Shown here piece by piece: positions 39,172 through 52,685 of a DNA stretch of 64,000 nucleotides. The notes beneath the pieces were generated by a model. The model was not told the origin of the DNA and made no database searches. It was given only the letters and a program-made list of their open reading frames with translations. The first letter of the stretch is position 1. Each line of letters begins with the position of its first letter. The position numbers and the translations under genes are program-made. The stretch is from the IMG/VR virus record IMGVR_UViG_3300025133_000019. One strand, written 5' to 3'. Source of the DNA: a virus. Lineage: Duplodnaviria; Heunggongvirae; Uroviricota; Caudoviricetes.

Positions 39172-42100
39172 ATGGCTGACGTAAAATTTAAAGGTACAGA
39201 TTACTATAAGGTTAAGACACAAGATTTTAGGTCTTTACTCAGTTCTGAAGTTCATGAGATTCAAGATATACAGTCTTTTGAAGGTAGGGAATCTACCAAA
39301 CTAACTGTAGGAGATGGTCCTAGCGGAGAATCCTGGAAAGTTGTTGTCAAAAGCAGCGAAGAAATAAGGATTCAACCGGGAATATTCACTCATAACGGTA
39401 ATGTCTTACATTTAAGTTCTCCAGTAGATATAAAGTATAACGACAACACTCAAGTATTGACTACTAATGCTAGATACATAGTATTTTGTACTTACAAAGA
39501 TGTTGAAGTCTCCTATTTAGATGACCCAGATTTAAAAGACCCAAGCCTAGGAGAGACCAGCACTAGAATGGGTAGAGAGTACACGTTCGGAGTTCATAAA
39601 GAGTGGACCCCCGTGTCTGTGGGAGTTAATTATATTCCGCTGTCCTATTTTACATGGACAAATTCTGTACTCAGTTCCGGGGATCTGTTTGACTTAAGAT
39701 TTAAGTTTGCCCAACATTATGTGGTTGACGGATTTAACGTCTCGTCCTATTCAGTGGACGGCAGTAATGCTGTAGTAACTTTAGAGCCAGGAAGTTTTTC
39801 TTATTTAGGATCTTTTAAGAGATTGACTTCTCCTACAGATGATGAGGATCTAAAATTTGAAATTCCCTTGGCATCTTTAGGGACACAGTCTCGTTACCGA
39901 ATAGGTTACGAACTCAGTTCTCATTTAAGTAATTCTGCAACCACAGTCAAAGTATCAGTGAGTACAGTTTCGACGAGCACTCATTCTGGGCCTTTTGTGT
40001 CTTTATACAATATTACCGTGGATAGTTCAGGGGCTGTTGAATCAGAGACTAATGATGTAAGAAGATATGAGCCTTTAACCAGAAGAATCGCTTCTAACAA
40101 GTCTTTAGCATTAGCTGACGTTTCTTTCTTGAAACCAATGCAATCTCCCTCTCCTAACATGGGAGTTACTGTAAATGAGGGATGGTACTTTTTTAAAGGT
40201 GTGTATAAGTTTTATGCTGGAGGCATTATGCCTCATGACACAGTTTCGAATGTCGGCAAACACAGGCTGGATGTTGCGGGGTTATCCTCAAGTAACGTTC
40301 TTACTTTGTATAAAGGAACAGAAGTAGCTACAGGGGTAACACCAACAGAAAATACTTCTGTACCAGATGACTTTTTTAGGCTTTATCAAGTTATTATAAG
40401 TGATACTACCTCTTATATCACTGATCCAGCAAGTTTAAGTTCGCCTACAACGGGAGAGATAAAAGATTTTAGAAAGATATTTGACCATTTTCCGAGCGCT
40501 TCTACAGTTGGGGTGGATAGATCTGGGTTTGCTGGAACTAGTACGGGAGGTTTGCCCTCAACGGGAACTTCAGATTCAACTCAAGAAGTCCTGGATGATA
40601 TTGATAATGCCTTAGTTTCAAAACAGAATTTTACAAATTCTTTAGGTATTACTACTCAAGAGGGTCCTTCCGATGTTACTTTCAATTCTGTCACAGGTAA
40701 GATAACACTTGGACACGAAAATTATACAGGAGGAAATAGTGATCCTGCTACTAAAGTAGGGATAGCGGTAGAAGAAGATTCTTTGTTACCTAATAAAGTC
40801 ATTATAAAAAATACTTGGGATTCCGAATTGAGGAAGTTATCTTCTGGGGGAGTAGTTCCTACAACTATGCACTCACACCCAGGAGCGGGTGCAGTGGAAA
40901 ACGGAGCGCCGATTGTAGTTAATAGACAGATAGTTGAGGGCAGAATCGAAGACCGAATAGCTTTTATATCTGATTTTGTTGTCGATGAGGTACTTAATTC
41001 CCCTTTTGCTCTAATTGAAGCTACTGAAAGTATACCTACTCATATAAATCTTAATATAAATACGGGAGGAGCACTAGAGTTAACAGAAAGTGGATTTACC
41101 GTAAAAGTTGACAGTACTAAAGGTTTAAAGACATCTAACGACGGATTGTTAATTTATACTCATGCTACTCAATCTGGATTAGATTTTATAGATGATGGAA
41201 CCGGAGACTGTTATTTAAAAGTTCAGCTTGCTCCCGGATTTACTATAAATGGTTCTAATGAAATTGAATATGACTTAGCTCCTTTAGGGGGCCTTGTTGT
41301 TGATCCAGCTAATGGGTTAGCAGTTGGAGAAGCCTCCGAGATAGTAAATACCTTTAAAGGGCTGGGAGTAGAGGGAAGCTCGCCGTCCGAGAAGCTGATT
41401 GTAAAAAGGCTAGGGGCTATTGATTTTGATGGAGCAGGGTATCTTAAAGTCAATCTTGCAGATGGAGGGGACGGTACTAATCCCGGAAGCTCCTTTTTAT
41501 TAGAGCAGGCGTTCAGTATTCCAGGAGATGCGGGCAGTTACTTAAGAGTCAATATAAATGAGAATAAAGGTCTGGAGGATGTTGGGGGCGCATTGGCCGT
41601 CAATCTTGGAGCGGGACTATCTTTTTCCGGGGCAGGAGCAGTTGATCTGGACGTAGATTCCTTGGTAGTAGCTGATCCTGAGACTAATAAAAAAGGTCTA
41701 GAAGTGTCTTCTGGAACACTAGGAGTAAAGCTAGAAGCTACCACGCCTTCTCTAAAGGTTGCTGCTACAGGAGAATTGGGTGTTAAACTGAATACGGCCT
41801 CTGGATTGGCAGTCACCGCCTCTGGATTAGAAATAAATCTCGAATCCACGAATTCTGGTCTGGAATTTACAGGGGTAGATCCGGTTAAAGAGTTAGCCCT
41901 TAAGATATCCCCTAATAAAGGTTTAGCCACTACTACAACAGGTCTAGAGGTTAAGCTAGCGAGTGGTGGAGGGTTAGAGCATAGTGCAAATGGCTTGAAA
42001 ACCACTAGCGGGTTCTCTCCTACAGGGACAATTTATTTATTCGGTGGAGAAATATACGACTCTGCTTTGGTAACTCCGGAAGTTTTAACAGATAGTTTTA

Positions 42101-42933
42101 ATACCTATGACGTAGAGACCAAGACCTTTAATTTTTTGGCTAATCCTACTACACACAAGAAAAAATCTTTAGGCAGTTTTGGGTTTAGTTCTGATAATAC
42201 AGTTCATGTATTCGGCGGTACTACTAATTTTGTAGATACTAATGATTCACATTTTAAGTATGATATAGGAACTATGGTTTGGACAACAGAAGCCAACATG
42301 AATCTTCAGGGCAGAGAGATGGCCTCCGTAAATATTTCAGACTCTGTTGGAATTATGTTAGAGGGAACTGCTGGAACTAGTGTGGAGGCGTACCAGACTT
42401 CTGGAGGGTGGACTAACATTGGGAGTAGTACTGGTAGGGACGGAGTTGCAGCAGCAACCTCGAACACCGATTCCCCTGGAGCAGGTAATTCGGCCAGGAT
42501 TCTGTATTTTGGTGGAAATTTGGGAGTGACTTATTACAATGAGTTGAAAGAGACCGTAATTGATGATGTTATAGCCGTAGGTACTACTTCATTAATAGGA
42601 ACCGTAGCCCCGGCTTTACAATACGCTTCCGCTTTTAAAGTTGTTGATGATGAGATAATGGTTGTGGGCGGGAGAGACGATTCTCTTCATTATACTACTG
42701 TTTTTCAAGTAGATAATGGTGGAACTAGTACCTCTAAAAATCCTTTGCCGTTTTTATCCAAAAGTGATATGGCTTCAGTAGTTAATGGAGGCAAAGCTTT
42801 CTTTTTTGGAGGGATTACCTCTAACGATTCTGTGATTAGTGACATTTTATCATTTGATATAGCTACAGAAACGTGGTCTTTTGAAGGCAAAACAATGATA
42901 CCTATTAGGAATTCTACAGCAACTATAGTATAA
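39172..42933 (+). CDS. Tail fibre with GL shaft repeats and C-terminal six-bladed Kelch propeller
   Basis: N-terminal LLSSEVHEIQDI...DLKDPSLGETSTR attachment domain; many GL.....L.V.L repeats (about 41060-42000); Kelch blades IYLFGG, VHVFGG, IMLEG, ILYFGG, IMVVGG, AFFFGG. Confidence 0.8.
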   Translation: MADVKFKGTDYYKVKTQDFRSLLSSEVHEIQDIQSFEGRESTKLTVGDGPSGESWKVVVKSSEEIRIQPGIFTHNGNVLHLSSPVDIKYNDNTQVLTTNARYIVFCTYKDVEVSYLDDPDLKDPSLGETSTRMGREYTFGVHKEWTPVSVGVNYIPLSYFTWTNSVLSSGDLFDLRFKFAQHYVVDGFNVSSYSVDGSNAVVTLEPGSFSYLGSFKRLTSPTDDEDLKFEIPLASLGTQSRYRIGYELSSHLSNSATTVKVSVSTVSTSTHSGPFVSLYNITVDSSGAVESETNDVRRYEPLTRRIASNKSLALADVSFLKPMQSPSPNMGVTVNEGWYFFKGVYKFYAGGIMPHDTVSNVGKHRLDVAGLSSSNVLTLYKGTEVATGVTPTENTSVPDDFFRLYQVIISDTTSYITDPASLSSPTTGEIKDFRKIFDHFPSASTVGVDRSGFAGTSTGGLPSTGTSDSTQEVLDDIDNALVSKQNFTNSLGITTQEGPSDVTFNSVTGKITLGHENYTGGNSDPATKVGIAVEEDSLLPNKVIIKNTWDSELRKLSSGGVVPTTMHSHPGAGAVENGAPIVVNRQIVEGRIEDRIAFISDFVVDEVLNSPFALIEATESIPTHINLNINTGGALELTESGFTVKVDSTKGLKTSNDGLLIYTHATQSGLDFIDDGTGDCYLKVQLAPGFTINGSNEIEYDLAPLGGLVVDPANGLAVGEASEIVNTFKGLGVEGSSPSEKLIVKRLGAIDFDGAGYLKVNLADGGDGTNPGSSFLLEQAFSIPGDAGSYLRVNINENKGLEDVGGALAVNLGAGLSFSGAGAVDLDVDSLVVADPETNKKGLEVSSGTLGVKLEATTPSLKVAATGELGVKLNTASGLAVTASGLEINLESTNSGLEFTGVDPVKELALKISPNKGLATTTTGLEVKLASGGGLEHSANGLKTTSGFSPTGTIYLFGGEIYDSALVTPEVLTDSFNTYDVETKTFNFLANPTTHKKKSLGSFGFSSDNTVHVFGGTTNFVDTNDSHFKYDIGTMVWTTEANMNLQGREMASVNISDSVGIMLEGTAGTSVEAYQTSGGWTNIGSSTGRDGVAAATSNTDSPGAGNSARILYFGGNLGVTYYNELKETVIDDVIAVGTTSLIGTVAPALQYASAFKVVDDEIMVVGGRDDSLHYTTVFQVDNGGTSTSKNPLPFLSKSDMASVVNGGKAFFFGGITSNDSVISDILSFDIATETWSFEGKTMIPIRNSTATIV

Positions 42934-42943: not shown

Positions 42944-43558
42944 AAAAATAATTTAGATAAAATATTCAGCGAAATAGAAGAATCACGAGAAGACCTAGTG
43001 GATAAGTCAGAAATTTTGCCCCTGTTTTCGTCAGAGTTTCAGTTGGCCAACTTCTCTTTGTCTAAAGGGGCTATTAATGAATTTGGTTTGTTTAAAAAAA
43101 CTAAATTAGAATTGCAGGGACGATTAGATATGCTGCAAAGTTTATATTTTAGCTATGAGGGATTAAAAATAGACATTGATGAGATAAATGAGGCTTTAGA
43201 AAACGAAGATAACAAGTTTTCAGTAAGAAGGTTACAACTAAGTTTAAAAGAGAAAGAGGCAGCACTTTTTAATATCGAGAGATCTGTGTCTAATCTCAAT
43301 CAAGAGTACGGAATGATGAGAGATGTCTTTCTGAAGTTGTATGATAAATTTAAAGATTCTGACATCAATTCTTTGGAGATAGAATATTGGATAGAAAAAT
43401 ATAGACTAGACGTTTCCAAGCTTCTTAAAGAAGGGAAAGTTCAAGAGTTAGGAGACCTTTTATCCTCTTTTGATTCCGGATTCGCAGAGAAGATTGTGGA
43501 AGGAGTTCCGGGATTGACATCAGAGAGAATTAGCAGAGAGGTTGGTAATGCCGAATAG
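42941..43558 (+). CDS. Coiled-coil protein, possible fibre chaperone
   Basis: About 205 aa of helical heptads between two fibre genes. Confidence 0.55.
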   Translation: MKNNLDKIFSEIEESREDLVDKSEILPLFSSEFQLANFSLSKGAINEFGLFKKTKLELQGRLDMLQSLYFSYEGLKIDIDEINEALENEDNKFSVRRLQLSLKEKEAALFNIERSVSNLNQEYGMMRDVFLKLYDKFKDSDINSLEIEYWIEKYRLDVSKLLKEGKVQELGDLLSSFDSGFAEKIVEGVPGLTSERISREVGNAE

Positions 43559-45716
43559 TTTTTCACTATCTTTTAGTCCTATAAAAAGAAGGACCCTTAG
43601 TATTAGTCAAAGTCCTCCTGCTGCTGTAGAATTAGCGTATCGAGAGAGACTGCTCCACTCTGGAATAATTTCTTCCTTTGTCTCTGGAACGCAGTTCAAG
43701 AGTTTGGCTAACCCAATTCCCGATGATGCCCCAATAAATAGTTCTTTGAAAGTAGAATTACCTGCTACAAGTCAGCCTCATGTTAACCCAAAGGGGTTAA
43801 AATATTCGGTTAGAATAATTTCTAGTGAGGGAGATATATCGTGGAGGGATTTGGTTTCCCTGGAGGATTCTGGCACGGGATCTATCAAGGATAGCCTCAT
43901 TACTATAGATGCTTCTATAGATACTGCCTTAGTAGGAGCGAGGTGGGACATACTGTACCCTGTTGACGACGGTATAAGATATGTGTCTACCGTAAGCGCT
44001 GTTGACAGCCAAGCAAAGACAGTAACTGGACAAGCAGATAATATAATTAGTGAGCTTTCGTTAGTAGATGGAAAACCTGATTTTGATTTAGTAGTAGTTA
44101 GCGCCACAGACGGATCTATTCAAACACGTACAATAAGTTCTTTGACTGATTTTGGCACAATTGTGATAACCTTGGATAGCTGGTATACCAATGACCCAAG
44201 TGTTAACGATATAATTTTTATAAAGAGTGCTAAGTGGACTGGATTTTCTAATCCTATTTATGATCCTTATACTGATTTAGCAGCTTTCAAGACTTTTTTA
44301 ACTACTGCTGCTCCAACTCTTCCTATTCCTCTTATAGATCCTCTGTTTGACACAGACGTTGTGATTGGAGATGGGAACGCTACTGCATACCCAGTTTTTG
44401 ATTATGAATCAGAGTACAGTACTGGAGAGATAGTTTGGTTTGGAAATAGCATAACAGGTTTGAAATCCCAGACTAGCCCTAAAATTTATCCAGTGGATTA
44501 TACAGCAGCAGGGGCAGATCCGGCACTCTATACCACGAATAAGCCCTTGGCTCCTTATAATATGAAACTTAAGTGGTCAGGGACTGCTTTGGGAACTACC
44601 AATTTTATAACTGAAGGTCAGGCTTTTACTTTAGTCAATGGTGACCAGGATGCCAACACTCTTCATCATCATGACTCCTATATAAAACAAGAAACCTACA
44701 CTCAACAAGAAGTTCTAGACCTTATTAATTCTTCTTTACACTGGATCAAGATAGGGGATGATGTCTACCAGAGATATGAAGGGAAGGTTGGTATAGGTAA
44801 AGCAACGAATCCTAAGGCTCATTTACACATAAAAACCAACGAGGGTGATCAATTCATGTTGGAGAGGTCTTCTGTAGATCCAGACGATGTTTTCGATACC
44901 CGTGTTTCGGCAAAAAATGGATATTTTAGTCAAGCTTCGGGTTGTGCTGCTATAACTTCACCTGGAGAAGTTAACTTGGCTTTCTCAGCCACTTTAAGCC
45001 AGACTATCAGTGTTCTGTGGGTAGAGGGGAATCAAACCCATACTACTGTGTCTGGATCATCGGTAACTATAACTGGATTAGCAGTGTCCACAGAGCATAA
45101 TTTTATATGTACGTCTAGCTTGACTGGATTTTCGGTTCAAGTGGCGGTCACTCTTTCAAATAATACAAGTTCTTTTAGCATAGTATCTGGAAGTTTTAAT
45201 TATTCTGCTTCGGGGTCAAATTCGGCTTTTTTACCTACGGGCGGATTCCTTATTGATGGAACAGACGCTGCGACACTTCAATTAACTATGGGTATTGTGG
45301 GATCTGGTGGAATTATCAGAACTAATGTTCCTAATTCCTCTTTCCAATTTGACAATGATTTAACAGTGTTTGGTAATTTCCAAACGCCGTCTGATGAGAG
45401 AATAAAGACCAACATAGAAAATATATCCAATCCTTTGGAGTTCATTAATAAAATGCAGGGAGTATATTTCGATTTTGAAGATTCTCAGAGGGAGTTTGTC
45501 AACTTGTCTGGGCACCGTATGGGTTATATAGCACAGCAAATGCAAGAGATATTCCCTTTTGTAGTAAAGGAAACCGGCAAAAATTCTATCCTATCTATAA
45601 GGTATCAGGATATAATACCAGTTCTTAGTGAAGGTATAAAGGAACTTTGTGGCAAAATAGAGGAATTGCAAGATAAGGTAGAGGAGCTTGAGGAGAAGGT
45701 TAATAATGAGTCATGA
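43548..45716 (+). CDS. Tail fibre/spike with C-terminal peptidase S74 intramolecular chaperone
   Basis: GKVGIG...P.A.LHI; SDERIKTNI...G.IAQ....FP.VV...L.EGIKEL plus terminal coiled coil; likely start MPNSF at 43548. Confidence 0.88.
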   Translation: MPNSFSLSFSPIKRRTLSISQSPPAAVELAYRERLLHSGIISSFVSGTQFKSLANPIPDDAPINSSLKVELPATSQPHVNPKGLKYSVRIISSEGDISWRDLVSLEDSGTGSIKDSLITIDASIDTALVGARWDILYPVDDGIRYVSTVSAVDSQAKTVTGQADNIISELSLVDGKPDFDLVVVSATDGSIQTRTISSLTDFGTIVITLDSWYTNDPSVNDIIFIKSAKWTGFSNPIYDPYTDLAAFKTFLTTAAPTLPIPLIDPLFDTDVVIGDGNATAYPVFDYESEYSTGEIVWFGNSITGLKSQTSPKIYPVDYTAAGADPALYTTNKPLAPYNMKLKWSGTALGTTNFITEGQAFTLVNGDQDANTLHHHDSYIKQETYTQQEVLDLINSSLHWIKIGDDVYQRYEGKVGIGKATNPKAHLHIKTNEGDQFMLERSSVDPDDVFDTRVSAKNGYFSQASGCAAITSPGEVNLAFSATLSQTISVLWVEGNQTHTTVSGSSVTITGLAVSTEHNFICTSSLTGFSVQVAVTLSNNTSSFSIVSGSFNYSASGSNSAFLPTGGFLIDGTDAATLQLTMGIVGSGGIIRTNVPNSSFQFDNDLTVFGNFQTPSDERIKTNIENISNPLEFINKMQGVYFDFEDSQREFVNLSGHRMGYIAQQMQEIFPFVVKETGKNSILSIRYQDIIPVLSEGIKELCGKIEELQDKVEELEEKVNNES

Positions 45717-46347
45717 AGATTTAGTAACTATAATTAAAAATGAAGAGGGGCTCTTTTCTATTGATTACATGGACTCAGATTTGCAGAGGGAAAGGGTCCC
45801 CGTGGACTCCAATGATGGGATAAAGTTTAAAAAAAATACTATCGAGGTAGTTGACAAGGTTTTTGGAGATTCTATTGCCATCAAAAAAAAGTCAATACTG
45901 TCAGTACTGTCCTATCACGGAGACTCTTCTAAAGTTGTGGAAGGCTTGAAGAGGGATCATAACACTCTTCAAGAGTATTCCCAATCCAAAGCTAAAAGTC
46001 TTCTATTTTTATTGGGGCCTAGCTTACCTGAGAAAATAGTAATGGCGGTTTTTAATCTAAGTAAGGTCGAGGATATATACAACCATTTACCAGTGGATAT
46101 AGATAAACACAGAAAAGTGTGGTCTGGGTTGATAACTGCTAGGTCTGAAGATTACCTTCAATTGCTAGAGTCTAGCTCTATGGATAAAGAGTCACCAGAA
46201 TATAAAAAAATGGTTAAGGAAGTTAAGTCTTTGGCCGTAAAGGAAAAAATTGAAAGTCTTTCTAGTGTGAAGGAGTTGATAGGTTTCTGGCCTCCTTTAC
46301 TGTACCCTTCTCACATTCCCCTCTCTTATTTTTTTGATGAGCAATAG
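45706..46347 (+). CDS. Hypothetical protein, possible fibre-assembly factor
   Basis: Overlaps the fibre stop; C-terminal ELIGFWPPLLYP. Confidence 0.5.
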   Translation: MSHEDLVTIIKNEEGLFSIDYMDSDLQRERVPVDSNDGIKFKKNTIEVVDKVFGDSIAIKKKSILSVLSYHGDSSKVVEGLKRDHNTLQEYSQSKAKSLLFLLGPSLPEKIVMAVFNLSKVEDIYNHLPVDIDKHRKVWSGLITARSEDYLQLLESSSMDKESPEYKKMVKEVKSLAVKEKIESLSSVKELIGFWPPLLYPSHIPLSYFFDEQ

Positions 46348-47053
46348 AATAGCCTTAATAGCCACGGGTCCTTCTTTACTAAGTAAAAAAGGACCTTTAA
46401 TTGATTCCTTCGGTAAAGTGGTAAGAATGGGGAGATCCATTCTTAAAGGGTACGAAGAACATGTTGGGGAGAGAACCGACATCTTTTGTGCCGTACCTTT
46501 TAAGATTGCTCCAGTATTAGATGCTATACACAATGGTTACGGGATAAAATCCTTACACTCGAATTACCCAGAAGTTAGTACTTTCGATGCCTGTACTCTA
46601 TTAAATTTGGGAGGTATATTTCATATAGATAGGGTGCCCGAAATATGGTGGAGAGATGATGCCGAAAAGATAGTAGCTGACTATATTAATAAGCTGGATA
46701 AACACGGATTCGGAAGAACTAAAGAATTCGAGTCTCTGTTCAAGGGGTTCATGTCTCTCGATAAGAAACACAGGTACTCTAGCAAAGATTACAGATTAGA
46801 ATTGGGAGATAACTTAAAGATGTCTTCGTGCAATTCTCAAGTCATCCCTACGTCCGGAATATCATTTTTACATCTAGCTACCAAGATTTACGCAAAGGAA
46901 GAAATTGTTATAGGGGGTTTTGATTTTCTTTCGGGGGGCTGTTATTGGAATGTAAATCTATCCCATTTTAAAAATCACCCCTCATTTCAGGAGATGCTTT
47001 TTGTGCAAGAGTTGAAAAAGTCTGGTAAAGTCTTATTTTTAGGTGATATGTGA
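46337..47053 (+). CDS. GT29 (sialyltransferase-like) glycosyltransferase
   Basis: Sialylmotif L-like IALIATGPSLL...G.LIDSF..VVRM......GYEEHVGERT; S-like PTSG...GGFDF; VS-like H...QE. Confidence 0.8.
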   Translation: MSNRIALIATGPSLLSKKGPLIDSFGKVVRMGRSILKGYEEHVGERTDIFCAVPFKIAPVLDAIHNGYGIKSLHSNYPEVSTFDACTLLNLGGIFHIDRVPEIWWRDDAEKIVADYINKLDKHGFGRTKEFESLFKGFMSLDKKHRYSSKDYRLELGDNLKMSSCNSQVIPTSGISFLHLATKIYAKEEIVIGGFDFLSGGCYWNVNLSHFKNHPSFQEMLFVQELKKSGKVLFLGDM

Positions 47054-47688
47054 CTAAAGTTTGTATTGTAGGAAACGGAGGAAGTGCCCTGGATAGTAAG
47101 AAGGGGCGTGAAGTGGATGATTGCGACGTGGTAATTCGGATGGGGATGTGTCCCTTAAAAGGTTATGGGGATCACGTAGGAACAAAAACTTCCATATATT
47201 CTACAGGATTGTCTTATAAAAAATTTTATGATACTAAAAAGGCAGGTCTTTTTGAGCTATCTAAAGAGGTATGGTCATTTGTTCCGGTAGGGCCTGTTCC
47301 CAACGGCATAACAAAGTGGGAACAGGATTTTGTAAAAGATTGGGAACAGTCTTCTCGTGATTATTTAAACAAGGCGGAGACGGGGCTTTGTGGAGAGTCC
47401 GTAGTCTCAATTGATTATAGTAAAGCTCTAGAAGTGGTGAGAGATTTGGGATTGACTGGGATGAACAATAATATGGGAGAGTTTTTGAGACCTTCTTTAG
47501 GATTTTTCACCGTATATAAATCCATGATGGAGTTCTCAGGTTCCTGCATATCCTTGTTGGGTTTTGATTTTTTTAATTCTGGTTGGTACTGGGATCTAAC
47601 TCACAAGTGTAATCATAAGCACAGCCCTTTTTTGGAAAAAGTGTGGATAAACACAAAAATATCTGAAGGATCATTAAAGTGGCTATGA
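47050..47688 (+). CDS. GT29 (sialyltransferase-like) glycosyltransferase, second copy
   Basis: VCIVGNGGS.L....G.EVDDCDVVIRM......GY.DHVGTKT; PSLG...LLGFDFF; HSPFLE. Confidence 0.85.
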   Translation: MTKVCIVGNGGSALDSKKGREVDDCDVVIRMGMCPLKGYGDHVGTKTSIYSTGLSYKKFYDTKKAGLFELSKEVWSFVPVGPVPNGITKWEQDFVKDWEQSSRDYLNKAETGLCGESVVSIDYSKALEVVRDLGLTGMNNNMGEFLRPSLGFFTVYKSMMEFSGSCISLLGFDFFNSGWYWDLTHKCNHKHSPFLEKVWINTKISEGSLKWL

Positions 47689-48623
47689 CTGAGACGCTGT
47701 ATTTTCTCTGCGATCGAAAAGTAGAGAACTATTTAGATAACGATCAAGACCATTTACCAGGAAAAGACGTTATTGGGTACATGTTTTGGATTCTCAGGAA
47801 TTACGGGGTTACGAACGTAAAAATGGTGACTGATGCTAGAAGTTTGGACAAGGATAGTGTGGTATTTTTTCACGGGGATAATATACATCTTATATCAACA
47901 AAGAAAGTGAGAGCTGTACAGTTTGTATCGGATAGGCCAAAAGTTGAAGGGTGTTTTTTATATCTCTTTTGTAACCCGTCTTTTTTTTCAGGGGAGGTTT
48001 TCCCCGAGGTTGCCAGGAGAGTGGGAATAAAGAATGCCATGGGAATTGCTCTGCAACCAAATTATAGGTATGTATTACACCCCTTCTCTAACGGCATCAT
48101 AAAGTGTACACCCAGTTTTCCACCTAAAATTTTTGGGTTTAGTGGCCGGGAACACACTATAGACCCAGAGTTTCTGAAGCCCTCTTTTATAAAAAAAGCT
48201 GCTGAAAACGAAATTCAGTTGCAACTTAGATTCGATTTAGATAGAAACACCGGAAATGAAGATGTTTGGTTTTGTGTAAGAAACAATAAATATGTATCCA
48301 ATTCTGGCTACAATTTAGATGGAGAGGGCGGTCACAAACATCCCGGAAGACTATATCAAGCTTGGTATATGGGGGTTCCTTCTATCTTTAATTCAAGCTC
48401 TGAGATGCTGTCTTTGAAAGAGAGTAAGCTGGACTTCCTTGTAGCTGACAATTCAGAAGAGTTTATTGAGAAGGCTAGTCTATTAAAAAATGATAGAGAC
48501 TTGTTTTTTGGGATGATTGACAACTCTAAAAGAAGATCAGACGAGGGATCTAATTTAGCTATGATTAGTAGCCTAATAGAAGCTCTCAGTCCTGAAGGGA
48601 TACATTTAAATCGGGTAGTTTGA
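47685..48623 (+). CDS. Putative GT-B glycosyltransferase
   Basis: K.FGFSG...; KHPGRLYQAWYMGVPSIF resembles the GT-B nucleotide-binding K...KL..A...GVP.I motif. Confidence 0.65.
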   Translation: MTETLYFLCDRKVENYLDNDQDHLPGKDVIGYMFWILRNYGVTNVKMVTDARSLDKDSVVFFHGDNIHLISTKKVRAVQFVSDRPKVEGCFLYLFCNPSFFSGEVFPEVARRVGIKNAMGIALQPNYRYVLHPFSNGIIKCTPSFPPKIFGFSGREHTIDPEFLKPSFIKKAAENEIQLQLRFDLDRNTGNEDVWFCVRNNKYVSNSGYNLDGEGGHKHPGRLYQAWYMGVPSIFNSSSEMLSLKESKLDFLVADNSEEFIEKASLLKNDRDLFFGMIDNSKRRSDEGSNLAMISSLIEALSPEGIHLNRVV

Positions 48624-49885
48624 TGTGTGGGTTTTTAATATCCTCTCTAAACATTGAAAATCTGGAAGAGGTGAACTTTAAGCTGCGGAAAAGAGGGCCG
48701 GATTTTACTTTTAGGGCCTCGGTGGAGAGATTTACTGTTCTTCATAATCTGTTGGACATTTCTAAACAACTTCGGGTGCAGCCTTATGAGGAAGATGGAG
48801 TTTTTGTCCTTTTCAACGGAGAGTTCTATAACCCCAATATCTCTAACGAGGGTAAGTTTTTAGCTAAGGAGTATCTCGAAAAGGGAGAGACTTTTATAAG
48901 TTCTGTGGATGGAGAATTTGCTCTAGTGATAATAGATACTAAAAAAGAAGAAATCTTTCTTTTTACAGATACCTTCCGGACTAGACCTCTGTTTTACTCT
49001 TTAGACGGAGGAATATCTATATCCTCTTACGAGAGTTCCTTGCGCCTGATGGGATGTAATAACATTGTTGATCTAGATAACTCTAAAATGGTGAAGATCT
49101 CTTTCCAAGGAAAGGTTTTGCAGGAAGACGTTTATTTTGAGTTTGAAATAAAGGACGAGGTAAAAGATTTCGACAAAGTGTTTTCCAGCTTGGAAAAATC
49201 GGTAGTGAAAAGGACTAAGTCCCCCACTCCCTTCTTTATAGGGTTAAGCAGCGGGTATGACTCAGGAACTTTGTTAGCAGTTTTATTGAAATATGAGATA
49301 AAATTTGAGACTCTCACCTTGTGGTCTAAAGATGAGAGTCACGAGGTTTTGGAGAGAAGGCTTAAGCTATGTTACGATAATAACATAGGATCTATAAAAC
49401 TTAATTCTAGTTCCCCTGATCAGGAGTTAAATAGGGTGTGGTTGGCAGCTATAGTTGAGGAATACAAGTATGAATATGACGGGTCGTCCATCCTCAAAGA
49501 GCCTTCTAGTTTAGGATATATGTTGATGTTTAAAGAGGCGCTTAACAGGGGCTTGGGTATTTTTATGACTGGTCAGGGTGGAGATGAAGTTTTATCTAAT
49601 TACTCGTTAGAGTTTTCATTTGACAATTTAAGAGATGTGTTTCCATGGGAACATTTTTATAGGAATAGACAAAGGGATTTTATAAATCAAGTGGATAGGA
49701 TCTCAGGGTCATTGGGTATAGAGTCTAGGTATCCATTTTTAGATAAAAGCTTTGTCCAGGATTTTCTGAATCTAGATCCGAATATTAAAAACGGTAGTTA
49801 TAAGAGTGTTTTTCACGAGTATATGAACTCCCATGATATGCCTTTTAAGTGCGGACATAAAACGGGTATGGGTCATAGGTGGTAA
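48623..49885 (+). CDS. Asparagine synthetase B-like glutamine amidotransferase
   Basis: N-terminal MCG, RGPD, FNGEFYN, D.F..RPLFY; synthetase LSSGYDS, TGQGGDE, ESRYPFLD. Confidence 0.9.
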   Translation: MCGFLISSLNIENLEEVNFKLRKRGPDFTFRASVERFTVLHNLLDISKQLRVQPYEEDGVFVLFNGEFYNPNISNEGKFLAKEYLEKGETFISSVDGEFALVIIDTKKEEIFLFTDTFRTRPLFYSLDGGISISSYESSLRLMGCNNIVDLDNSKMVKISFQGKVLQEDVYFEFEIKDEVKDFDKVFSSLEKSVVKRTKSPTPFFIGLSSGYDSGTLLAVLLKYEIKFETLTLWSKDESHEVLERRLKLCYDNNIGSIKLNSSSPDQELNRVWLAAIVEEYKYEYDGSSILKEPSSLGYMLMFKEALNRGLGIFMTGQGGDEVLSNYSLEFSFDNLRDVFPWEHFYRNRQRDFINQVDRISGSLGIESRYPFLDKSFVQDFLNLDPNIKNGSYKSVFHEYMNSHDMPFKCGHKTGMGHRW

Positions 49886-51116
49886 AAATTGGCTTGATGT
49901 GCTACAATTTTGCATGCCTAGCTTATCAAGCGATCTTGATTCGGTGTTAATAACCAAAGATTCAGGTAATCGCTATTTAATATATAATAAAAACGATTTT
50001 ATATGCGGTACGGCATATTTCTCGGACTTGGACTGTATTTTAACTATCAAGATGTCTCCGGATTCCGGTATATTGCGTAGAGATATTCTCCTATGCTTTG
50101 CTGAAACTTTTTATCCGAGGTTTTTAGGTTTTGACGAGGAGTATACTAAAGGGATTGAGGAGAGGTTACCTCTAGAAAATTTAAACTATACTTTTCTTGG
50201 TAAAGACACCTGTAAATTGTGGTTTTGCAGGTCAGATCTAAGGCTTAACTTTAAAGGTCACGAAAAGGATCGCATCGGTAACTATATCATGGACCCTGAA
50301 AATAGCTCCTTCCTGGGATTGTCCGTAGTTGAATTATCTATCTCAGATGTGTGTAATAGGTCGTGCGTGTTTTGCCCTAGAGGGGTCCCAGGATCTTATT
50401 CACCCTCAAATAAGTTTATGGAGTTTTCTACAGTTGAAAAAATAATCAGAGAGCTTGACGACAAAGATTATAAAGGAGAAATTCACTTGTGCGGGTTCGG
50501 GGAGCCTATTTACCACCCTAAACTAATGGAGATAATAACCTTGATAAGTAATTTGTTACCCGAGTCTTACCTGGAGTTAACCACTAATGGGGATAGCTTA
50601 ATAGAGGATACTTTAGGTGATCTTGTATCATCTGGGCTGTCAAAGTTAGTTGTGAATTGTTACGACAGTCTATCGCAAATAGTTGGGAGAGATTCCTTTC
50701 TTAAATCCGTTGAGGGACTGAATTATAAAATAAGGCATCACGTTATAGACTGTTCGTTGTCCTTGGGGGATAATATGGACAACTTTGGGTTCACTAATAG
50801 AGGTGGCTCGGTAAAAGGTCAGGACCTTTCGGTTCCTCTTGATAAAGAGTGTTTTTATCCTTTTTACAAAATGACTGTAGATTGGTCCGGAGAAGTAGTT
50901 TTGTGCTGCAATGACTGGGGGAAAGAGTTTGGGCCAAATTTAAATCTTGTACATGCCAGCGTAGAAGATATTTGGTCTAGCGGTGAGTTTACGGATATAA
51001 GAATAAAGCTGTCCGAAAAAGATCGAAGCTCTTCTCCTTGCAATAAATGTAATGTTGATGGAACTCTAGTAGGCAAAGGAAGTTTTGAAGCTATCGTGAG
51101 TTCATGGAAGATATAA
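49833..51116 (+). CDS. Radical SAM/SPASM protein with an extra N-terminal domain
   Basis: CNRSCVFC, GFGEP, TTNG, NRGG; SPASM C.YPF...G.V.LCCND...PC.KC. The true start may be 49899 or 49914. Confidence 0.9.
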   Translation: MICLLSADIKRVWVIGGKNWLDVLQFCMPSLSSDLDSVLITKDSGNRYLIYNKNDFICGTAYFSDLDCILTIKMSPDSGILRRDILLCFAETFYPRFLGFDEEYTKGIEERLPLENLNYTFLGKDTCKLWFCRSDLRLNFKGHEKDRIGNYIMDPENSSFLGLSVVELSISDVCNRSCVFCPRGVPGSYSPSNKFMEFSTVEKIIRELDDKDYKGEIHLCGFGEPIYHPKLMEIITLISNLLPESYLELTTNGDSLIEDTLGDLVSSGLSKLVVNCYDSLSQIVGRDSFLKSVEGLNYKIRHHVIDCSLSLGDNMDNFGFTNRGGSVKGQDLSVPLDKECFYPFYKMTVDWSGEVVLCCNDWGKEFGPNLNLVHASVEDIWSSGEFTDIRIKLSEKDRSSSPCNKCNVDGTLVGKGSFEAIVSSWKI

Positions 51117-51784
51117 ATATTTATATAGGATGGGATTCTAGAGAAGTAGAAGCTTTTGATGTCTGTAGGGCATCATTAGGCAATGATTATAATGTAACCC
51201 CTCTAAAAGTGAGAGACTTGGAATCTAAAGGTATTTATTATAGAGATAAGGACCCTAAATCATCCACAGAATTCGCCTTTACTCGTTTTTTAGCTCCCCA
51301 TTTGAACAATTACTCTGGGTGGGCTCTTTTTTGTGATTGTGATTTCTTGTGGTTAGAGCCAGCTAAAAATCTTTTACGGTCAATAGATGATAGTAAAGCA
51401 GTGTTGGTGGTTAAACATAATTATATCCCGCCTAATGATTTTAAAATGGATGGGCAAGTTCAATACAGATACCCCCGTAAAAATTGGAGTTCTTTGGTTT
51501 TGTGGAATTGCAGTCACCCTGCCAATAAAAAATTAGACGTGAATTTAGTTAATACAGAATCTGGAATGTACCTCCATAGATTTTCATGGTTGGAGGACAG
51601 TTTAATAGGAGAATTAAGCTTGGAATGGAATTGGTTAGTTGGTTGGCATAAGTCTCCCGAAGACGGAATACCCAAAGCTTTGCACTTTACCGAGGGAGGA
51701 CCTTGGTTAGATAATTACAGGGATTGTGAGTATTCTGATGTTTGGAGAGAGTACAAGGAGAAAATTGAAAATGATAACCAGTAG
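51104..51784 (+). CDS. GT-A glycosyltransferase (GT8/CDI-like)
   Basis: IYIGWDSRE, STEF.FTRFL.P, GWALFCDCD (DxD), YPRKNWSS, EWNWLVG, HFTEGGPW. Confidence 0.88.
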   Translation: MEDINIYIGWDSREVEAFDVCRASLGNDYNVTPLKVRDLESKGIYYRDKDPKSSTEFAFTRFLAPHLNNYSGWALFCDCDFLWLEPAKNLLRSIDDSKAVLVVKHNYIPPNDFKMDGQVQYRYPRKNWSSLVLWNCSHPANKKLDVNLVNTESGMYLHRFSWLEDSLIGELSLEWNWLVGWHKSPEDGIPKALHFTEGGPWLDNYRDCEYSDVWREYKEKIENDNQ

Positions 51785-52685
51785 AATAGACAATGTTACA
51801 GAAGTAGGAGACGAACATAGAAAGATAGATCCGCCTTACCCAAAGTCTGTAAAAATAGAGTTAACAGGGAGATGTAATCTTAAGTGTGAGTTTTGTGCTC
51901 ATAAAGATGGGTTAAGAGATGTATCGGACATTAAATGGGAGTTTTTTACCAGAATTGTGGAAGAACTTCATTCAATTGGGGTGAAGGAATTGGGAATGTT
52001 TTATCTGGGAGAGTCCTTACTATATAAAAAATTGCCAGAGGCAATAAAATATGCTAAAGATTTAGGTATTTCTTATGTTTTTCTAACTACCAATGGAGTC
52101 ACTAATAATTTTGACAGACTAAAAGGAGCGGTAGACTGCGGATTAGACTCTCTTAAGTTCTCCCTGAACTTTTGTGACGATGACCAGTTTAAAGAGGTGA
52201 CTGGGCTGAAGACTTCAAAACTAGATCTAGTAGTGGAGAATATTAAAAATATAAGTGAGTATATTAAAGAGAGCGGGTCTAAGTGTAAGGTATATGCTTC
52301 TTCTATTAGGTATTCTGATGAGCAGGTCGAGAGAATGGCGCCTCTGCTGGAAACTATGTCTGGATTTTTAGATGAGCACTATTGGTTGCCCCTATATGGG
52401 CAGGCTGGATTAGTTCCTTTTGAGGGTATGGACGGCGGTAATGTCGGGAGATTTGGTAATATGGTTTCTCCAATTCCATGTTGGACTTTATTTACAGAGG
52501 GACATATAACGTATGACGGCAGGCTATCTGCCTGCTGTTTTGATCATGACGGTAGGTTTGATATGGGAGATTTAAACACATCCTCTTTTATGGAGCTGTG
52601 GGGAAGTGAGAAATTTAAAAGCCTTAGAGAATGTCATTTGAGAGGCGATATTATAAATACAGTATGTGATGGATGTTTTGGTTAA
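51771..52685 (+). CDS. Radical SAM/SPASM protein
   Basis: CNLKCEFC, YLGES, LTTNG; SPASM PCW.LF...DG.LSACCFD...C.GC; SD aaggag before ATG 51771. Confidence 0.9.
   Translation: MITSRIDNVTEVGDEHRKIDPPYPKSVKIELTGRCNLKCEFCAHKDGLRDVSDIKWEFFTRIVEELHSIGVKELGMFYLGESLLYKKLPEAIKYAKDLGISYVFLTTNGVTNNFDRLKGAVDCGLDSLKFSLNFCDDDQFKEVTGLKTSKLDLVVENIKNISEYIKESGSKCKVYASSIRYSDEQVERMAPLLETMSGFLDEHYWLPLYGQAGLVPFEGMDGGNVGRFGNMVSPIPCWTLFTEGHITYDGRLSACCFDHDGRFDMGDLNTSSFMELWGSEKFKSLRECHLRGDIINTVCDGCFG

What the first reader, a model, noticed from the sequence alone, without database searches (positions are those of the whole stretch)
46337..52685. Fibre-coupled seven-gene glycan synthesis and tailoring operon: candidate phage virion-glycosylation system
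Seen: directly after the two tail-fibre genes come GT29, GT29, GT-B, AsnB-like amidotransferase, radical SAM/SPASM, GT8/CDI-like GT-A and a second radical SAM/SPASM. Most junctions overlap (45706/45716, 46337/46347, GTGA at 47050, ATGA at 47685, TGATG at 48623, 51104/51116, 51771/51784) and I saw no terminator between the fibres and the cluster. Established: AsnB-like enzymes amidate uronic acids in LPS/capsule pathways (WbpS type); some radical SAM/SPASM-type enzymes oxidise sugar-like alcohols (BtrN); some actinobacteriophages glycosylate their virion proteins. Inference: four transferases plus three tailoring enzymes build a complex, amidated, possibly ulosonic-acid-capped glycan on virion proteins, or alternatively on the host surface or the phage DNA. 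I do not recall this combination as a characterised system.
Basis: partly seen in the sequence, partly recalled or inferred. Interest (0 to 1): 0.88.

Follow-up and report, generated by a model that had tools for sequence, protein, structure and literature searches.

The report
Mobile fibre-linked phage glycan cassette
A marine jumbo phage carries, right behind a tail-fibre gene, seven enzymes for building and tailoring a sugar chain, and the same set recurs as a mobile unit beside the same kind of fibre gene in unrelated marine phages; whether it decorates the phage's own fibres (my best guess) or the host surface is untested.

Summary
Window 46337-52685 encodes seven co-directional, overlapping genes: two GT29-like enzymes with all four sialyl motifs, a GT-B enzyme, an AsnB-like amidotransferase, a BtrN-like radical SAM enzyme, a GT8-like GT-A, and a second radical SAM enzyme. 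All seven are predicted soluble.

New here: the set is a mobile cassette. At least ten other marine phage lineages carry the core, and they share nothing else with this phage except the C-terminal Peptidase_S74 part of the fibre. An S74 fibre gene lies within 3 kb in 6 of 10 evaluable lineages, against 0 of 34 control clusters. The supposed second fibre gene (45706-46347) is a cassette-specific accessory protein with a conserved C-terminal YWPPLLxP motif. The GT-B family has no detected bacterial relative. The GT-A does have relatives in bacterial glycan loci.

The target is not settled:
- Virion or fibre glycosylation is my best reading (about 0.42).
- Remodelling of host envelope glycan, the published reading for such islands, is close behind (about 0.33).
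- DNA glycosylation is unlikely.

Glycan islands beside fibres in marine myophages and virion glycosylation in actinophages are both published. I therefore rate this a new variant of a known kind.

The parts
43542..45716 (+). Tail fibre with a C-terminal Peptidase_S74 intramolecular chaperone domain (residues about 617-675)
   Evidence: More than 20 PHROG tail-fibre families match the C-terminal part. Pfam PF13884 at 1.9e-13. Its C-terminal roughly 150 residues are the only non-cassette sequence shared with the other cassette loci.
45706..46347 (+). Cassette-associated accessory protein (213 aa) with a conserved C-terminal [YF]W[PH]x[LIV]L[LY]PxP motif. It is not a recognisable fibre protein.
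   Evidence: No Pfam, PHROG or NCBIfam family. The motif occurs in 16 ORFs from 9 cassette lineages and nowhere else among 3036 ORFs. Alignments A6 and A7.
46337..47053 (+). Mini GT29-like (sialyltransferase-fold) glycosyltransferase a, 238 aa
   Evidence: PF00777 at 6e-9. 25% identical to paralogue b. Motifs L, S, III and VS are visible in alignment A1.
47050..47688 (+). Mini GT29-like glycosyltransferase b, 212 aa
   Evidence: PF00777 at 5e-13. Matches PDB sialyltransferases. Homologues are P0122 and P0123 in loci L012 and L013.
47685..48623 (+). GT-B fold glycosyltransferase (the 'GTB313' family), detected only in phage or metagenome contigs
   Evidence: phrog_33989. About 40 relatives, two of them carrying PF13524. 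AF2 pLDDT 89. Foldseek top hits are BshA, GtfC, Gtf3, SenB, TarM and SdgB. No relative in 185,579 prokaryote genomes or in GenBank phages.
48623..49885 (+). AsnB-like glutamine amidotransferase with an ATP-pyrophosphatase domain, 420 aa
   Evidence: GATase_7, GATase_6 and Asn_synthase. Starts MCGF and has an SSGYDS loop. Matches E. coli AsnB 1ct9 at E 4e-15. Scores below the AsnB equivalog cut-off. 32-33% identical to homologues in L013, L024 and S-SCSM1 gp130.
49833..51116 (+). BtrN-like radical SAM enzyme (twitch-type auxiliary cluster) with a lineage-specific N-terminal extension of about 160 aa
   Evidence: Radical_SAM plus SPASM. Residues 163-408 match BtrN 4m7t at E 4.6e-16. CNRSCVFC motif plus C340, C358/359, C403 and C406. 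32-37% identical homologues in 10 cassette lineages.
51104..51784 (+). GT8-like GT-A glycosyltransferase (the 'GT-A226' family), 226 aa
   Evidence: phrog_28018 at 9e-55. DCD motif at residues 78-80. 43-57% identical in cassette loci. More than 595 bacterial homologues at about 50% identity.
51771..52685 (+). Second radical SAM enzyme with a twitch-like domain ('rSAM2'), 304 aa
   Evidence: Radical_SAM plus SPASM. CNLKCEFC motif plus C237, C255/256, C299 and C302. Adjacent to GT-A226 in L004 and L005 and to a BtrN-like gene in L020. About 54% identical solitary orthologues in bacteria.

Best explanation
This is a phage-adapted, horizontally mobile, cytoplasmic cassette that assembles and tailors a glycan.

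Shown:
- There are seven soluble enzymes with intact catalytic motifs.
- The core set recurs together in unrelated marine phages, as far as the flanks held show. That core is one to five mini GT29-like transferases, a phage-only GT-B, a BtrN-like radical SAM enzyme and a GT8-like GT-A. An AsnB-like amidotransferase and a second radical SAM enzyme are often present too.
- The set comes with a cassette-specific accessory protein and usually sits beside a Peptidase_S74 tail-fibre gene.

Inferred mechanism:
- The GT-A and GT-B enzymes lay down a hexose core from host UDP-sugars.
- The GT29-like enzymes add ulosonic acid residues from a host-made CMP-sugar. CMP-Kdo is the obvious universal donor in Gram-negative hosts.
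- The BtrN-like enzyme oxidises a sugar secondary alcohol to a ketone. In sister cassettes this ketone would then be transaminated by a DegT or class I/II aminotransferase.
- The AsnB-like enzyme adenylates a sugar carboxylate and converts it to an amide.

Inferred target: the phage's own late proteins as they assemble in the cytoplasm. Most likely these are the adjacent fibre and/or the YWPPLLxP accessory protein. The result would be a glycosylated adsorption apparatus.
For: 1. All domain calls were verified.
2. Of the window's 50 proteins, only the cassette proteins and the S74 end of the fibre have homologues in loci L012-L031. GC ranges from 26 to 39%. The unit therefore moves between phage backbones and has been kept by phages.
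3. An S74 fibre gene lies within 3 kb in 6 of 10 evaluable cassette lineages, against 0 of 34 control clusters that hold a solitary GT29-like gene. Fisher p = 3e-5.
4. A non-enzymatic protein with a conserved C-terminal motif is found only in cassette loci, usually between the fibre gene and the enzymes.
5. The GT-B family has no detected bacterial relative.
6. The GT-A226 plus rSAM2 pair sits inside head modules of two high-GC phages. In L005 it follows terminase and portal. In L004 it lies between the capsid and the SU10 adaptor, alongside methyltransferases. L005 thus mirrors mycobacteriophage Corndog, whose O-methyltransferase and GT cassette follows the portal gene (PMC4351075).
7. In cultured Caulobacter phage CcrColossus the order is tail protein, sialyltransferase-like gene, GT-A226 homologue, GT9.
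8. There are no transmembrane segments, flippase, polymerase or initiating phosphoglycosyltransferase.
9. Sister cassettes add P4H-type and Asp/Arg-hydroxylase-type 2OG oxygenases, which are mostly protein hydroxylases.
10. The cluster ends a co-directional morphogenesis region that includes capsid, sheath and DUF4815 genes.
Against: - No glycosylated virion protein has been shown for this or any related marine phage. All the evidence is gene context.
- GT8, GT9, GT25 and Kdo-type transferases are classic LPS-core enzyme types.
- Bacterial homologues of GT-A226 sit in GT-rich surface-glycan loci. One of these, in Brucella pseudintermedia, also holds a mini GT29-like gene and a GT25 gene.
- Four cassette lineages show no S74 fibre gene within 10 kb (L015, L020, L029 and the JGI 229-kb contig).
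- Genes that block superinfection can also sit beside receptor-binding genes (T5 llp next to oad; my own knowledge). Adjacency is therefore not decisive.
- In the cyanophages S-SCSM1 and S-SCSM2R, single cassette components lie in large GT islands away from fibre genes.
- The S74 domain is cleaved off the mature fibre (general knowledge of the family). What is conserved may therefore be only a folding module.
Confidence: 0.42

Rival explanations
1. Host envelope remodelling. The soluble transferases act at the cytoplasmic face of the inner membrane on nascent lipid A-core or another lipid-linked glycan of the infected cell. They change the receptor that the neighbouring fibre recognises. This would block superinfection, or would stop progeny being lost on infected cells and debris.
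For: - This is the published reading for glycan genes in the fibre-containing hypervariable region of marine myophages and for cyanophage 'cell wall synthesis and modification' genes (PMC7029224; PMC12801897).
- GT-A226 has more than 595 bacterial homologues at about 50% identity. The examples checked lie in GT-rich loci: GT25, GT2 and a deacetylase in L146; GT4, GT2 and an ABC ATPase in L103.
- In S-SCSM2R the GT-A226 homologue lies two genes from KdsB and KdsA.
- AsnB-like enzymes occur in EPS and O-antigen loci; there is a partial NCBIfam match to TIGR03108.
- Co-evolution of a receptor-binding protein with a receptor-modifying activity would also explain the fibre linkage.
Against: - The cassette as a unit, its GT-B and its accessory protein are phage-specific and conserved across phages of very different GC content, and so probably different hosts. 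That fits a conserved phage acceptor better than variable host glycans.
- No flippase, ligase, polymerase or membrane anchor is present.
- The position at the end of a morphogenesis region is odd for an exclusion function, which is usually early.
- The GT-A226 plus rSAM2 pair lies inside head-gene modules in L004 and L005.
Confidence: 0.33
2. DNA hypermodification. The transferases build an oligosaccharide on a hydroxymethylated base of the phage genome, and the tailoring enzymes decorate it, to evade restriction.
For: - The cluster abuts the replication module: SNF2 helicase, DnaB, primase and PolA.
- Phage GT-A enzymes related to WaaJ and WaaO, and GT-B enzymes, are known to extend glycans on 5hmC (bioRxiv 10.1101/2023.12.21.572611).
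Against: - No thymidylate-synthase-like hydroxymethylase, TET/JBP dioxygenase or C5-methyltransferase was found in the 64-kb window.
- No thymidylate-synthase-like gene was found in five cassette-bearing IMG/VR contigs, which are only 11-53% complete.
- Such pathways are usually clustered with those genes.
- In other phages the cassette is next to fibre genes, not replication genes.
- CMP-ulosonic-acid transferases are not known on DNA.
Confidence: 0.07
3. The main product is not a glycan on a macromolecule. Either (a) the radical SAM enzymes modify the conserved C-terminal YWPPLLxP peptide of the accessory protein in a RiPP-like way, with glycosylation following as it does in mycofactocin, or (b) the cassette makes a free amino-sugar or aminocyclitol-like small molecule.
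For: - The accessory protein's most constant neighbours are twitch or SPASM radical SAM genes. In L163 it is followed by three distant radical SAM genes and no detected GT.
- SPASM and twitch enzymes commonly act on peptides (NCBIfam partial matches).
- BtrN itself is an aminoglycoside-pathway enzyme.
- Cultured Campylobacter phages carry a BtrN-like gene (32% identity) in a cluster of five radical SAM genes, an amidinotransferase and an aminotransferase, with no annotated GT.
Against: - Four glycosyltransferases, including two to five CMP-sugar-type enzymes per cassette, point to an oligosaccharide.
- No inosose synthase, peptidase or RRE domain was detected.
- The accessory protein is 213-496 aa long, not a short precursor.
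- rSAM2 has solitary bacterial orthologues with no such partner.
Confidence: 0.1

Closest known systems
Glycan ('LPS-related') gene sets in the fibre-containing hypervariable host-recognition cluster of marine T4-like myophages (pelagimyophages and cyanomyophages; PMC7029224, PMC12801897)
   Same: - Marine phages with GT8-type and other glycosyltransferases.
- Radical SAM cassettes and Asp/Asn hydroxylases interleaved with tail-fibre genes.
- L024 and L025 have the DUF4815 (VrlC-like) protein, then the fibre, then the cassette.
   Different: - Those papers describe the islands only in general terms and assign them to host O-chain modification.
- The specific conserved unit was not defined in what I read of those papers. 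That unit is the mini GT29 genes, the phage-only GT-B, the BtrN-like enzyme, GT-A226, the AsnB-like enzyme and the YWPPLLxP protein, linked to S74 fibres.
- The present phage is not T4-like in its replication genes (PolA type).
Mycobacteriophage virion glycosylation cassettes (Corndog gp35-38, PMC4351075; Freeman et al. 2023 Cell Host Microbe, cited in PMC12619734 but not held in the library)
   Same: - GT and tailoring genes sit inside the structural operon, and the enzymes are not virion components.
- L005 (terminase, portal, rSAM2, GT-A226, GT9, O-methyltransferases) mirrors Corndog's cassette, which follows the portal gene.
   Different: - The enzyme families differ: no GT29-like, radical SAM or AsnB-like enzymes there.
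- The hosts are Gram-positive-type actinobacteria.
- Glycans there are on capsid and tail-tube proteins, and were shown by mass spectrometry.
- Nothing has been shown experimentally for the present cassette.
CAZy GT29 sialyltransferases, including plant RCKT1 (a CMP-Kdo transferase, PMC11288761) and bacterial GT29 (PMC5811610)
   Same: - Sialyl motifs L, S, III and VS are present.
- The family profile matches ST6GalNAc2, ST3Gal-I and ST8Sia-III.
- The plant case shows that GT29 enzymes can use CMP-Kdo.
   Different: - The proteins are only 156-240 aa, with no stem, transmembrane region or disulphide framework.
- They occur in tandem arrays of one to five paralogues.
- Donor and acceptor are unknown.
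BtrN, the radical SAM 2-deoxy-scyllo-inosamine dehydrogenase of butirosin biosynthesis (PDB 4m7t)
   Same: - Full-length sequence match at E 5e-16.
- CX3CX2C motif plus a four-to-five-cysteine C-terminal twitch pattern.
- Sister cassettes pair it with a DegT or class I/II aminotransferase, as BtrN is paired with BtrS.
   Different: - Only distantly similar in sequence.
- The window copy has an extra N-terminal domain of about 160 aa.
- No inosose synthase is present, so the substrate is more probably a sugar or nucleotide-sugar alcohol.
AsnB-family amidotransferases of surface-glycan pathways (WbpS type; own knowledge) and E. coli AsnB (PDB 1ct9)
   Same: - Ntn glutaminase Cys2.
- PP-loop ATP-pyrophosphatase domain.
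- Occurs among glycosyltransferase genes.
   Different: - It is 420 aa against about 550.
- It scores far below the AsnB equivalog cut-off (112 against 267 bits).
- In L015 its place appears to be taken by an AMP-binding adenylating enzyme.
Phage DNA glycan hypermodification gene clusters (bioRxiv 10.1101/2023.12.21.572611)
   Same: - Phage GT-A and GT-B enzymes, sometimes several per cluster.
- Found near replication genes.
   Different: - No 5mYOX, ThyS or C5-methyltransferase partner was found.
- GT29-type, radical SAM and AsnB-type enzymes are not part of the clusters that paper describes.

Membership tests
CAZy GT29 (sialyltransferase-like) | Sialyl motif L (nucleotide-sugar binding Rossmann start) | tested here: met
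   PF00777 matches residues 5-57 at 5e-13 and 17-57 at 6e-9. The consensus IVxNGxS...G..ID..DVVIRMG...GYE..VG.KT is conserved in 8 of 8 family members.
CAZy GT29 (sialyltransferase-like) | Sialyl motifs S, III and VS (P-S/T-x-G...GF; Y-W-D/N; H-x4-E) | tested here: met
   RP(S/T)xG...GFDF and GxYW(D/N) are invariant or nearly so. H-x4-E is present in 7 of 8 members. The profile aligns to ST6GalNAc2 residues 150-340 at E 5e-12.
CAZy GT29 (sialyltransferase-like) | Transfer of a CMP-activated nonulosonic or ulosonic acid | not testable with these tools
   No CMP-sugar synthetase was found in the window or in five related contigs. The donor is presumed to be host-made.
BtrN-type radical SAM dehydrogenase (twitch subclass) | CX3CX2C radical SAM cluster motif | tested here: met
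   CNRSCVFC at residues 174-181 of 49833-51116 and CNLKCEFC at residues 35-42 of 51771-52685.
BtrN-type radical SAM dehydrogenase (twitch subclass) | Single auxiliary 4Fe-4S cluster in a short C-terminal twitch domain, with full-length similarity to BtrN | tested here: met
   This holds for 49833-51116. Residues 163-408 match BtrN 4m7t residues 25-256 at E 4.6e-16. The cysteines are C340, C358/359, C403 and C406. For 51771-52685 only the cysteine pattern and a weak BtrN match (3e-4) are seen, so that copy is inconclusive.
BtrN-type radical SAM dehydrogenase (twitch subclass) | Oxidation of a secondary alcohol of an amino-cyclitol or sugar | not testable with these tools
   Inferred only from homology and from pairing with aminotransferases in sister cassettes.
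Asparagine synthetase B (equivalog) | Score above the curated NCBIfam cut-off | tested here: not met
   TIGR01536 scores 111.7 bits against a cut-off of 267.1. NF006949 scores 85.3 against 499. The protein is AsnB-like, not AsnB.
AsnB-like class II amidotransferase | N-terminal nucleophile Cys2 and a PP-loop SxGxDS | tested here: met
   The protein starts MCGF and has SSGYDS at about residue 209. GATase_7 and Asn_synthase domains are present.
GT8 (retaining GT-A) | Pfam PF01501 match and a DxD motif | tested here: inconclusive
   The DCD motif is present and invariant in the family. The window protein has no Pfam hit. A relative in L012 has only a faint PF01501 hit. The PDB profile search gives only WbbM at E 0.03.
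GT-B fold glycosyltransferase (GT4-like) | Two-Rossmann-domain GT-B fold | tested here: met
   AF2 pLDDT 89.1 and pTM 0.88. There are 159 Foldseek PDB matches at E<=1e-3, and the listed top hits are GT-B enzymes, with TM 0.5-0.62. Two relatives carry PF13524.
Phage virion glycosylation system (actinophage type) | GT and tailoring genes embedded in the virion structure operon | tested here: met
   The cluster directly follows the fibre genes at the end of the morphogenesis region. A sub-module sits inside head modules in L004 and L005.
Phage virion glycosylation system (actinophage type) | Glycan demonstrably attached to capsid, tail or fibre proteins | not testable with these tools
   This needs virions or co-expression followed by mass spectrometry.
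Phage DNA glycan hypermodification cluster | Clustering with a base-hydroxymethylating enzyme (ThyS-like or 5mYOX/TET) or a C5-methyltransferase | tested here: not met
   No such family was found among the window's ORFs. PF00303 is absent from five related contigs. The PF12851 search was uninformative because its controls did not ring. The rest of the 374-kb genome could not be searched.

The most novel reading that the evidence does not exclude
The cassette is a dedicated phage protein-glycosylation system of a kind not yet described.
- The YWPPLLxP accessory protein is the acceptor, or the adaptor that presents the S74 fibre.
- Sialyltransferase-fold enzymes cap the protein-linked glycan with host-derived ulosonic acids.
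- Twitch-type radical SAM enzymes and an amidotransferase tailor the sugars in place.

The result would be marine phage fibres with an acidic, amidated glycan coat. That coat could tune adsorption or shield the fibres, and it would move between phages together with the fibre tip.
Probability: 0.2. Interest if true: 0.85.

Novelty: new variant of a known kind. Interest (0 to 1): 0.6.

Why it matters
Large marine phages carry many 'LPS-like' sugar genes. Their purpose has been guessed (host surface modification) but never tested.

This work turns a vague island into a defined unit that can be tested:
- a fixed core of enzymes;
- a phage-only GT-B marker;
- a cassette-specific accessory protein with a short conserved C-terminal motif;
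- a statistically supported link to one class of fibre gene.

If the target is the fibre, virion glycosylation would extend from actinophages to marine phages, which probably infect Gram-negative hosts. It would also add sialyltransferase-type and radical SAM chemistry to it. If the target is the host envelope, the cassette would be a portable receptor-editing module that travels with the receptor-binding protein. Either result bears on host range and phage-phage competition in the ocean.

Tried and rejected
- Megablast of the cluster against GenBank phages found nothing. The phage has no close cultured relative; its PolA is at most 31% identical to known ones.
- The search for related loci with the AsnB-like protein alone found nothing.
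- No whole genome is held for the window. The other roughly 310 kb of the phage could therefore not be searched for CMP-sugar or DNA-modification genes.
- The AF2 model of the GT-B from three sequences was useless (pLDDT 41). It was redone with 30 sequences.
- The PDB profile search for the GT-B found nothing by sequence.
- Complex prediction of the BtrN-like enzyme with the accessory protein gave no verdict. This is not evidence either way.
- No RNA holder is listed among the sequencing runs, so there is no information on expression.
Profile-guided scans confirmed only known contigs plus L163.
- The Tet_JBP search rang in no control genome, so its blank is uninformative.
- CcrColossus gp126, annotated 'alpha-2,3-sialyltransferase-like', shows only weak similarity to the window's GT29-like family, limited to the motif S to III stretch (hhalign probability 8.5%). 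I treat it as an analogue, not a member.
- ESM Atlas gave no usable relative or fold for the accessory protein.
- I considered QueC/Gat-QueC (7-deazaguanine) for the amidotransferase and rejected it. The match is to Asn_synthase and AsnB, not QueC.
- I considered a PseA/WbuX-type amidotransferase and rejected it for the same reason.
- The promoter and terminator scan is at chance level and was not used.

Full report
**What is there.** The window is one strand-uniform stretch of an uncultured marine phage. Its own contig is 374 kb. Near-identical copies occur in marine metagenomes. GC is about 38% throughout. There is no nucleotide match in GenBank phages, and PolA is only distantly related to known ones.

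Upstream of the finding lie morphogenesis genes: capsid, tail sheath and a DUF4815 protein. These are followed by large fibre-like proteins: a Big_5 protein, a 1253-aa protein with a Kelch propeller, and a 724-aa fibre ending in a Peptidase_S74 chaperone domain. Downstream come an SNF2 helicase, DnaB, primase and PolA.

**The observation.** Every domain call held up.
- The two small proteins at 46337-47688 match Pfam GT29. They are 25% identical paralogues. In an eight-member alignment they keep sialyl motifs L, S, III and VS. The family profile aligns with ST6GalNAc2, ST3Gal-I and ST8Sia-III.
- 47685-48623 has no Pfam family. With 30 relatives it folds confidently (pLDDT 89) as a GT-B enzyme. 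Its nearest solved structures are GT4-type enzymes: BshA, GtfC/Gtf3, SenB, TarM and SdgB.
- 48623-49885 is an AsnB-like amidotransferase with the Cys2 nucleophile and a PP-loop. It scores far below the AsnB equivalog cut-off.
- 49833-51116 matches BtrN over its whole catalytic length at E 5e-16 and has an extra N-terminal region of about 160 residues.
- 51104-51784 is a GT8-like GT-A with an invariant DCD motif.
- 51771-52685 is a second radical SAM enzyme.
- Both radical SAM enzymes have a cysteine pattern that fits one auxiliary cluster (twitch) rather than a full SPASM domain.
- None of the seven has a hydrophobic segment long enough for a membrane helix.

Promoter and terminator scans are at chance level. 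The cluster is joined as tightly to the helicase gene downstream as to the fibre gene upstream, so "no terminator" says nothing about the target.

**The cassette is conserved and mobile.**
- The GT29-like protein has few close relatives. Their contigs carry the same gene set.
- Profile searches for the GT-B and GT29-like families in IMG/VR and in the large protein collection brought in more loci.
- I then scanned 75 loci with custom HMMs. The core is the GT-B, one to five GT29-like genes, a BtrN-like gene and GT-A226. It is often joined by the AsnB-like gene and sometimes by rSAM2. This core, whole or in part, occurs in at least ten further lineages with GC from 26 to 39%.
- Sister cassettes add a DegT or class I/II aminotransferase, P4H-type and Asp/Arg-hydroxylase-type 2OG oxygenases, a longer GT8, or an AMP-binding enzyme where the AsnB-like gene would be.
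- Of all 50 window proteins, only the cassette proteins and the last roughly 150 residues of the fibre find homologues in these loci. The backbones are therefore unrelated, as far as the flanks show, and the cassette moves horizontally.

**Fusions and breadth of the GT29-like family.** GT8-GT29, GT92-GT29 and GT29-GT2-methyltransferase fusion proteins exist in metagenomes. This supports the idea that these activities work on one glycan. The mini GT29-like family itself is large: 1337 representative clusters at E<=1e-10. A "GT29 in a phage" is thus not in itself rare, and bacterial GT29 was reported in 2018 (PMC5811610).

**Link to fibres.** An S74-domain fibre gene, confirmed by Pfam in four further loci, lies within 3 kb of the cassette in the window, L013, L022/26, L023-25, L027/28 and L031. 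It is absent within 10 kb in L015, L020/21, L029/30 and a JGI 229-kb contig. L012 is too short to judge. None of 44 loci (34 clusters) with a solitary GT29-like gene has one. That is 6 of 10 against 0 of 34, Fisher p = 3e-5, and the result holds with a broader S74 model. One caveat: the control phages may simply lack S74 fibres.

**A cassette-specific accessory protein.** It shares a C-terminal helical region ending in [YF]W[PH]x[LIV]L[LY]PxP with one ORF in nearly every cassette lineage. The motif occurs in 16 ORFs of 9 lineages and nowhere else among 3036 ORFs. My rough estimate of the chance expectation is below 0.1. The ORF usually sits between the fibre gene and the enzymes. One further lineage (L163) has this protein followed by three distant radical SAM genes and no detected GT.

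**Relatives in bacteria and in other phages.**
- The GT-B family has no detected relative in 185,579 prokaryote genomes or in GenBank phages.
- GT-A226 has hundreds of bacterial homologues at about 50% identity, mostly in Alphaproteobacteria. In the loci checked it lies among other GTs. In Brucella pseudintermedia it sits beside a true mini GT29 homologue (hhalign probability 94%) and a GT25 gene. In Mesorhizobium it sits with GT4 and GT2 genes.
- rSAM2 has solitary bacterial orthologues at about 54% identity in unrelated contexts.
- In two high-GC phage contigs, rSAM2 and GT-A226 sit together inside head modules. L005 runs terminase, portal, rSAM2, GT-A226, GT9 and O-methyltransferases. In L004 the pair lies between the capsid and the SU10 adaptor. 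[quoted passage not shown]
- In cultured Caulobacter phage CcrColossus a tail protein gene is followed by a sialyltransferase-like gene, a GT-A226 homologue and a GT9 gene. That sialyltransferase-like protein is at best a distant analogue of the window's family.
- Single components also occur in large GT islands of cyanophages S-SCSM1 and S-SCSM2R and in Pelagibacter phage Mosig.

**How it most likely works.**
- Shown: a phage-maintained set of soluble enzymes with intact motifs that co-occur.
- Inferred chemistry: the GT-A and GT-B enzymes build a core from UDP-sugars. The GT29-like enzymes add CMP-activated ulosonic acids. CMP-Kdo is plausible because plant GT29 RCKT1 uses it (PMC11288761), every Gram-negative host makes it, and no CMP-sugar synthetase is seen in the window or in related contigs. 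The BtrN-like enzyme oxidises a sugar alcohol, and in sister cassettes that step is coupled to transamination. The AsnB-like enzyme amidates a carboxylate.
- The target is inferred from context only. I favour the phage's own fibre apparatus (0.42). The reasons are the phage-specific GT-B and accessory protein, the S74 linkage, the head-module placement of the sub-module, the absence of any lipid-carrier or export gene, and the protein-hydroxylase-type partners.
- The host-envelope reading (0.33) is the published default (PMC7029224, PMC12801897). It is supported by the LPS-core character of the enzyme families and by the bacterial contexts of GT-A226.
- DNA glycosylation (0.07) lacks any hydroxymethylase or TET partner, although most of the genome could not be searched.
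- A RiPP-like or small-molecule product (0.10) is kept open by L163 and by a BtrN-like gene in radical SAM, amidinotransferase and aminotransferase clusters of Campylobacter phages.

**Verdict.** This is not a one-off curiosity but a defined, mobile, fibre-linked cassette of unknown target. I rate it a new variant of a known kind (phage glycan islands and virion-glycosylation cassettes). It is of solid interest because it can now be tested directly.

Noticed in passing
window 45706-46347; L013:9679-10404(-), L015:5007-5726, L020:4440-5180, L022:3204-3986, L024:8265-8981, L025:7720-8433, L027:16563-17555(-), L031:4703-6193, L163:9842-10555: A divergent protein family (15-36% identity) is defined by an extreme C-terminal motif, [YF]W[PH]x[LIV]L[LY]PxP. 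It was found only beside the glycan/radical-SAM cassette. No known family or fold matches it.
   Followed up: partly
L163:10536-16037 (IMGVR_UViG_3300021962_000066): Here the motif-bearing accessory protein is followed by three distant radical SAM genes, and none of the cassette's glycosyltransferases was detected. This hints that the radical SAM enzymes are its constant partners, rather than the GTs.
   Followed up: no
window 51771-52685; L006, L007, L016, L018: rSAM2 has orthologues at about 54% identity in many bacteria, including Thioflexithrix. They are solitary genes in unrelated neighbourhoods. This looks like a highly conserved but unnamed radical SAM family with its own housekeeping-type role.
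   Followed up: partly
window 39172-42933: A 1253-aa fibre-like protein has an adenovirus-fibre N-terminal-type repeat (residues 860-892) and a C-terminal Kelch beta-propeller (about residues 950-1240). It is a probable second receptor-binding protein upstream of the S74 fibre.
   Followed up: no
P0235, P0272, P0199, P0193 (metagenome proteins): Natural fusion proteins join GT8 to GT29, GT92 to GT29, and GT29 to GT2 and a methyltransferase. Others are tandem GT29-GT29 proteins of up to 934 aa.
   Followed up: partly
L146:9298-13301 (Brucella pseudintermedia chromosome 1): A bacterial locus holds a mini GT29-like gene, a GT-A226 orthologue, a GT25 gene, a polysaccharide deacetylase and a GT2 gene. 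It is a possible cellular source or counterpart of part of the phage cassette.
   Followed up: partly
L166 (Campylobacter phage vB_CjeM_WX1, record 109957-121688): A cultured Eucampyvirinae phage has a cluster of five radical SAM genes, including a BtrN-like gene 32% identical to the window's. The cluster also holds an amidinotransferase, a class I/II aminotransferase and a PAP2 phosphatase. No GT is annotated and the function is unknown.
   Followed up: no
L156 (Caulobacter phage CcrColossus gp125-gp131): The gene order is tail protein, sialyltransferase-like protein, two hypotheticals, GT-A226 homologue, GT9 and then the lysis genes. This is a cultured system in which a tail-linked glycan gene set could be knocked out.
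   Followed up: partly
window 49833-50310: The BtrN-like gene of this phage carries an N-terminal extension of about 160 residues that is absent from the 283-323-aa homologues in the other cassettes. Its start overlaps the AsnB-like gene by 53 nt. An internal Met28 start is also possible.
   Followed up: no
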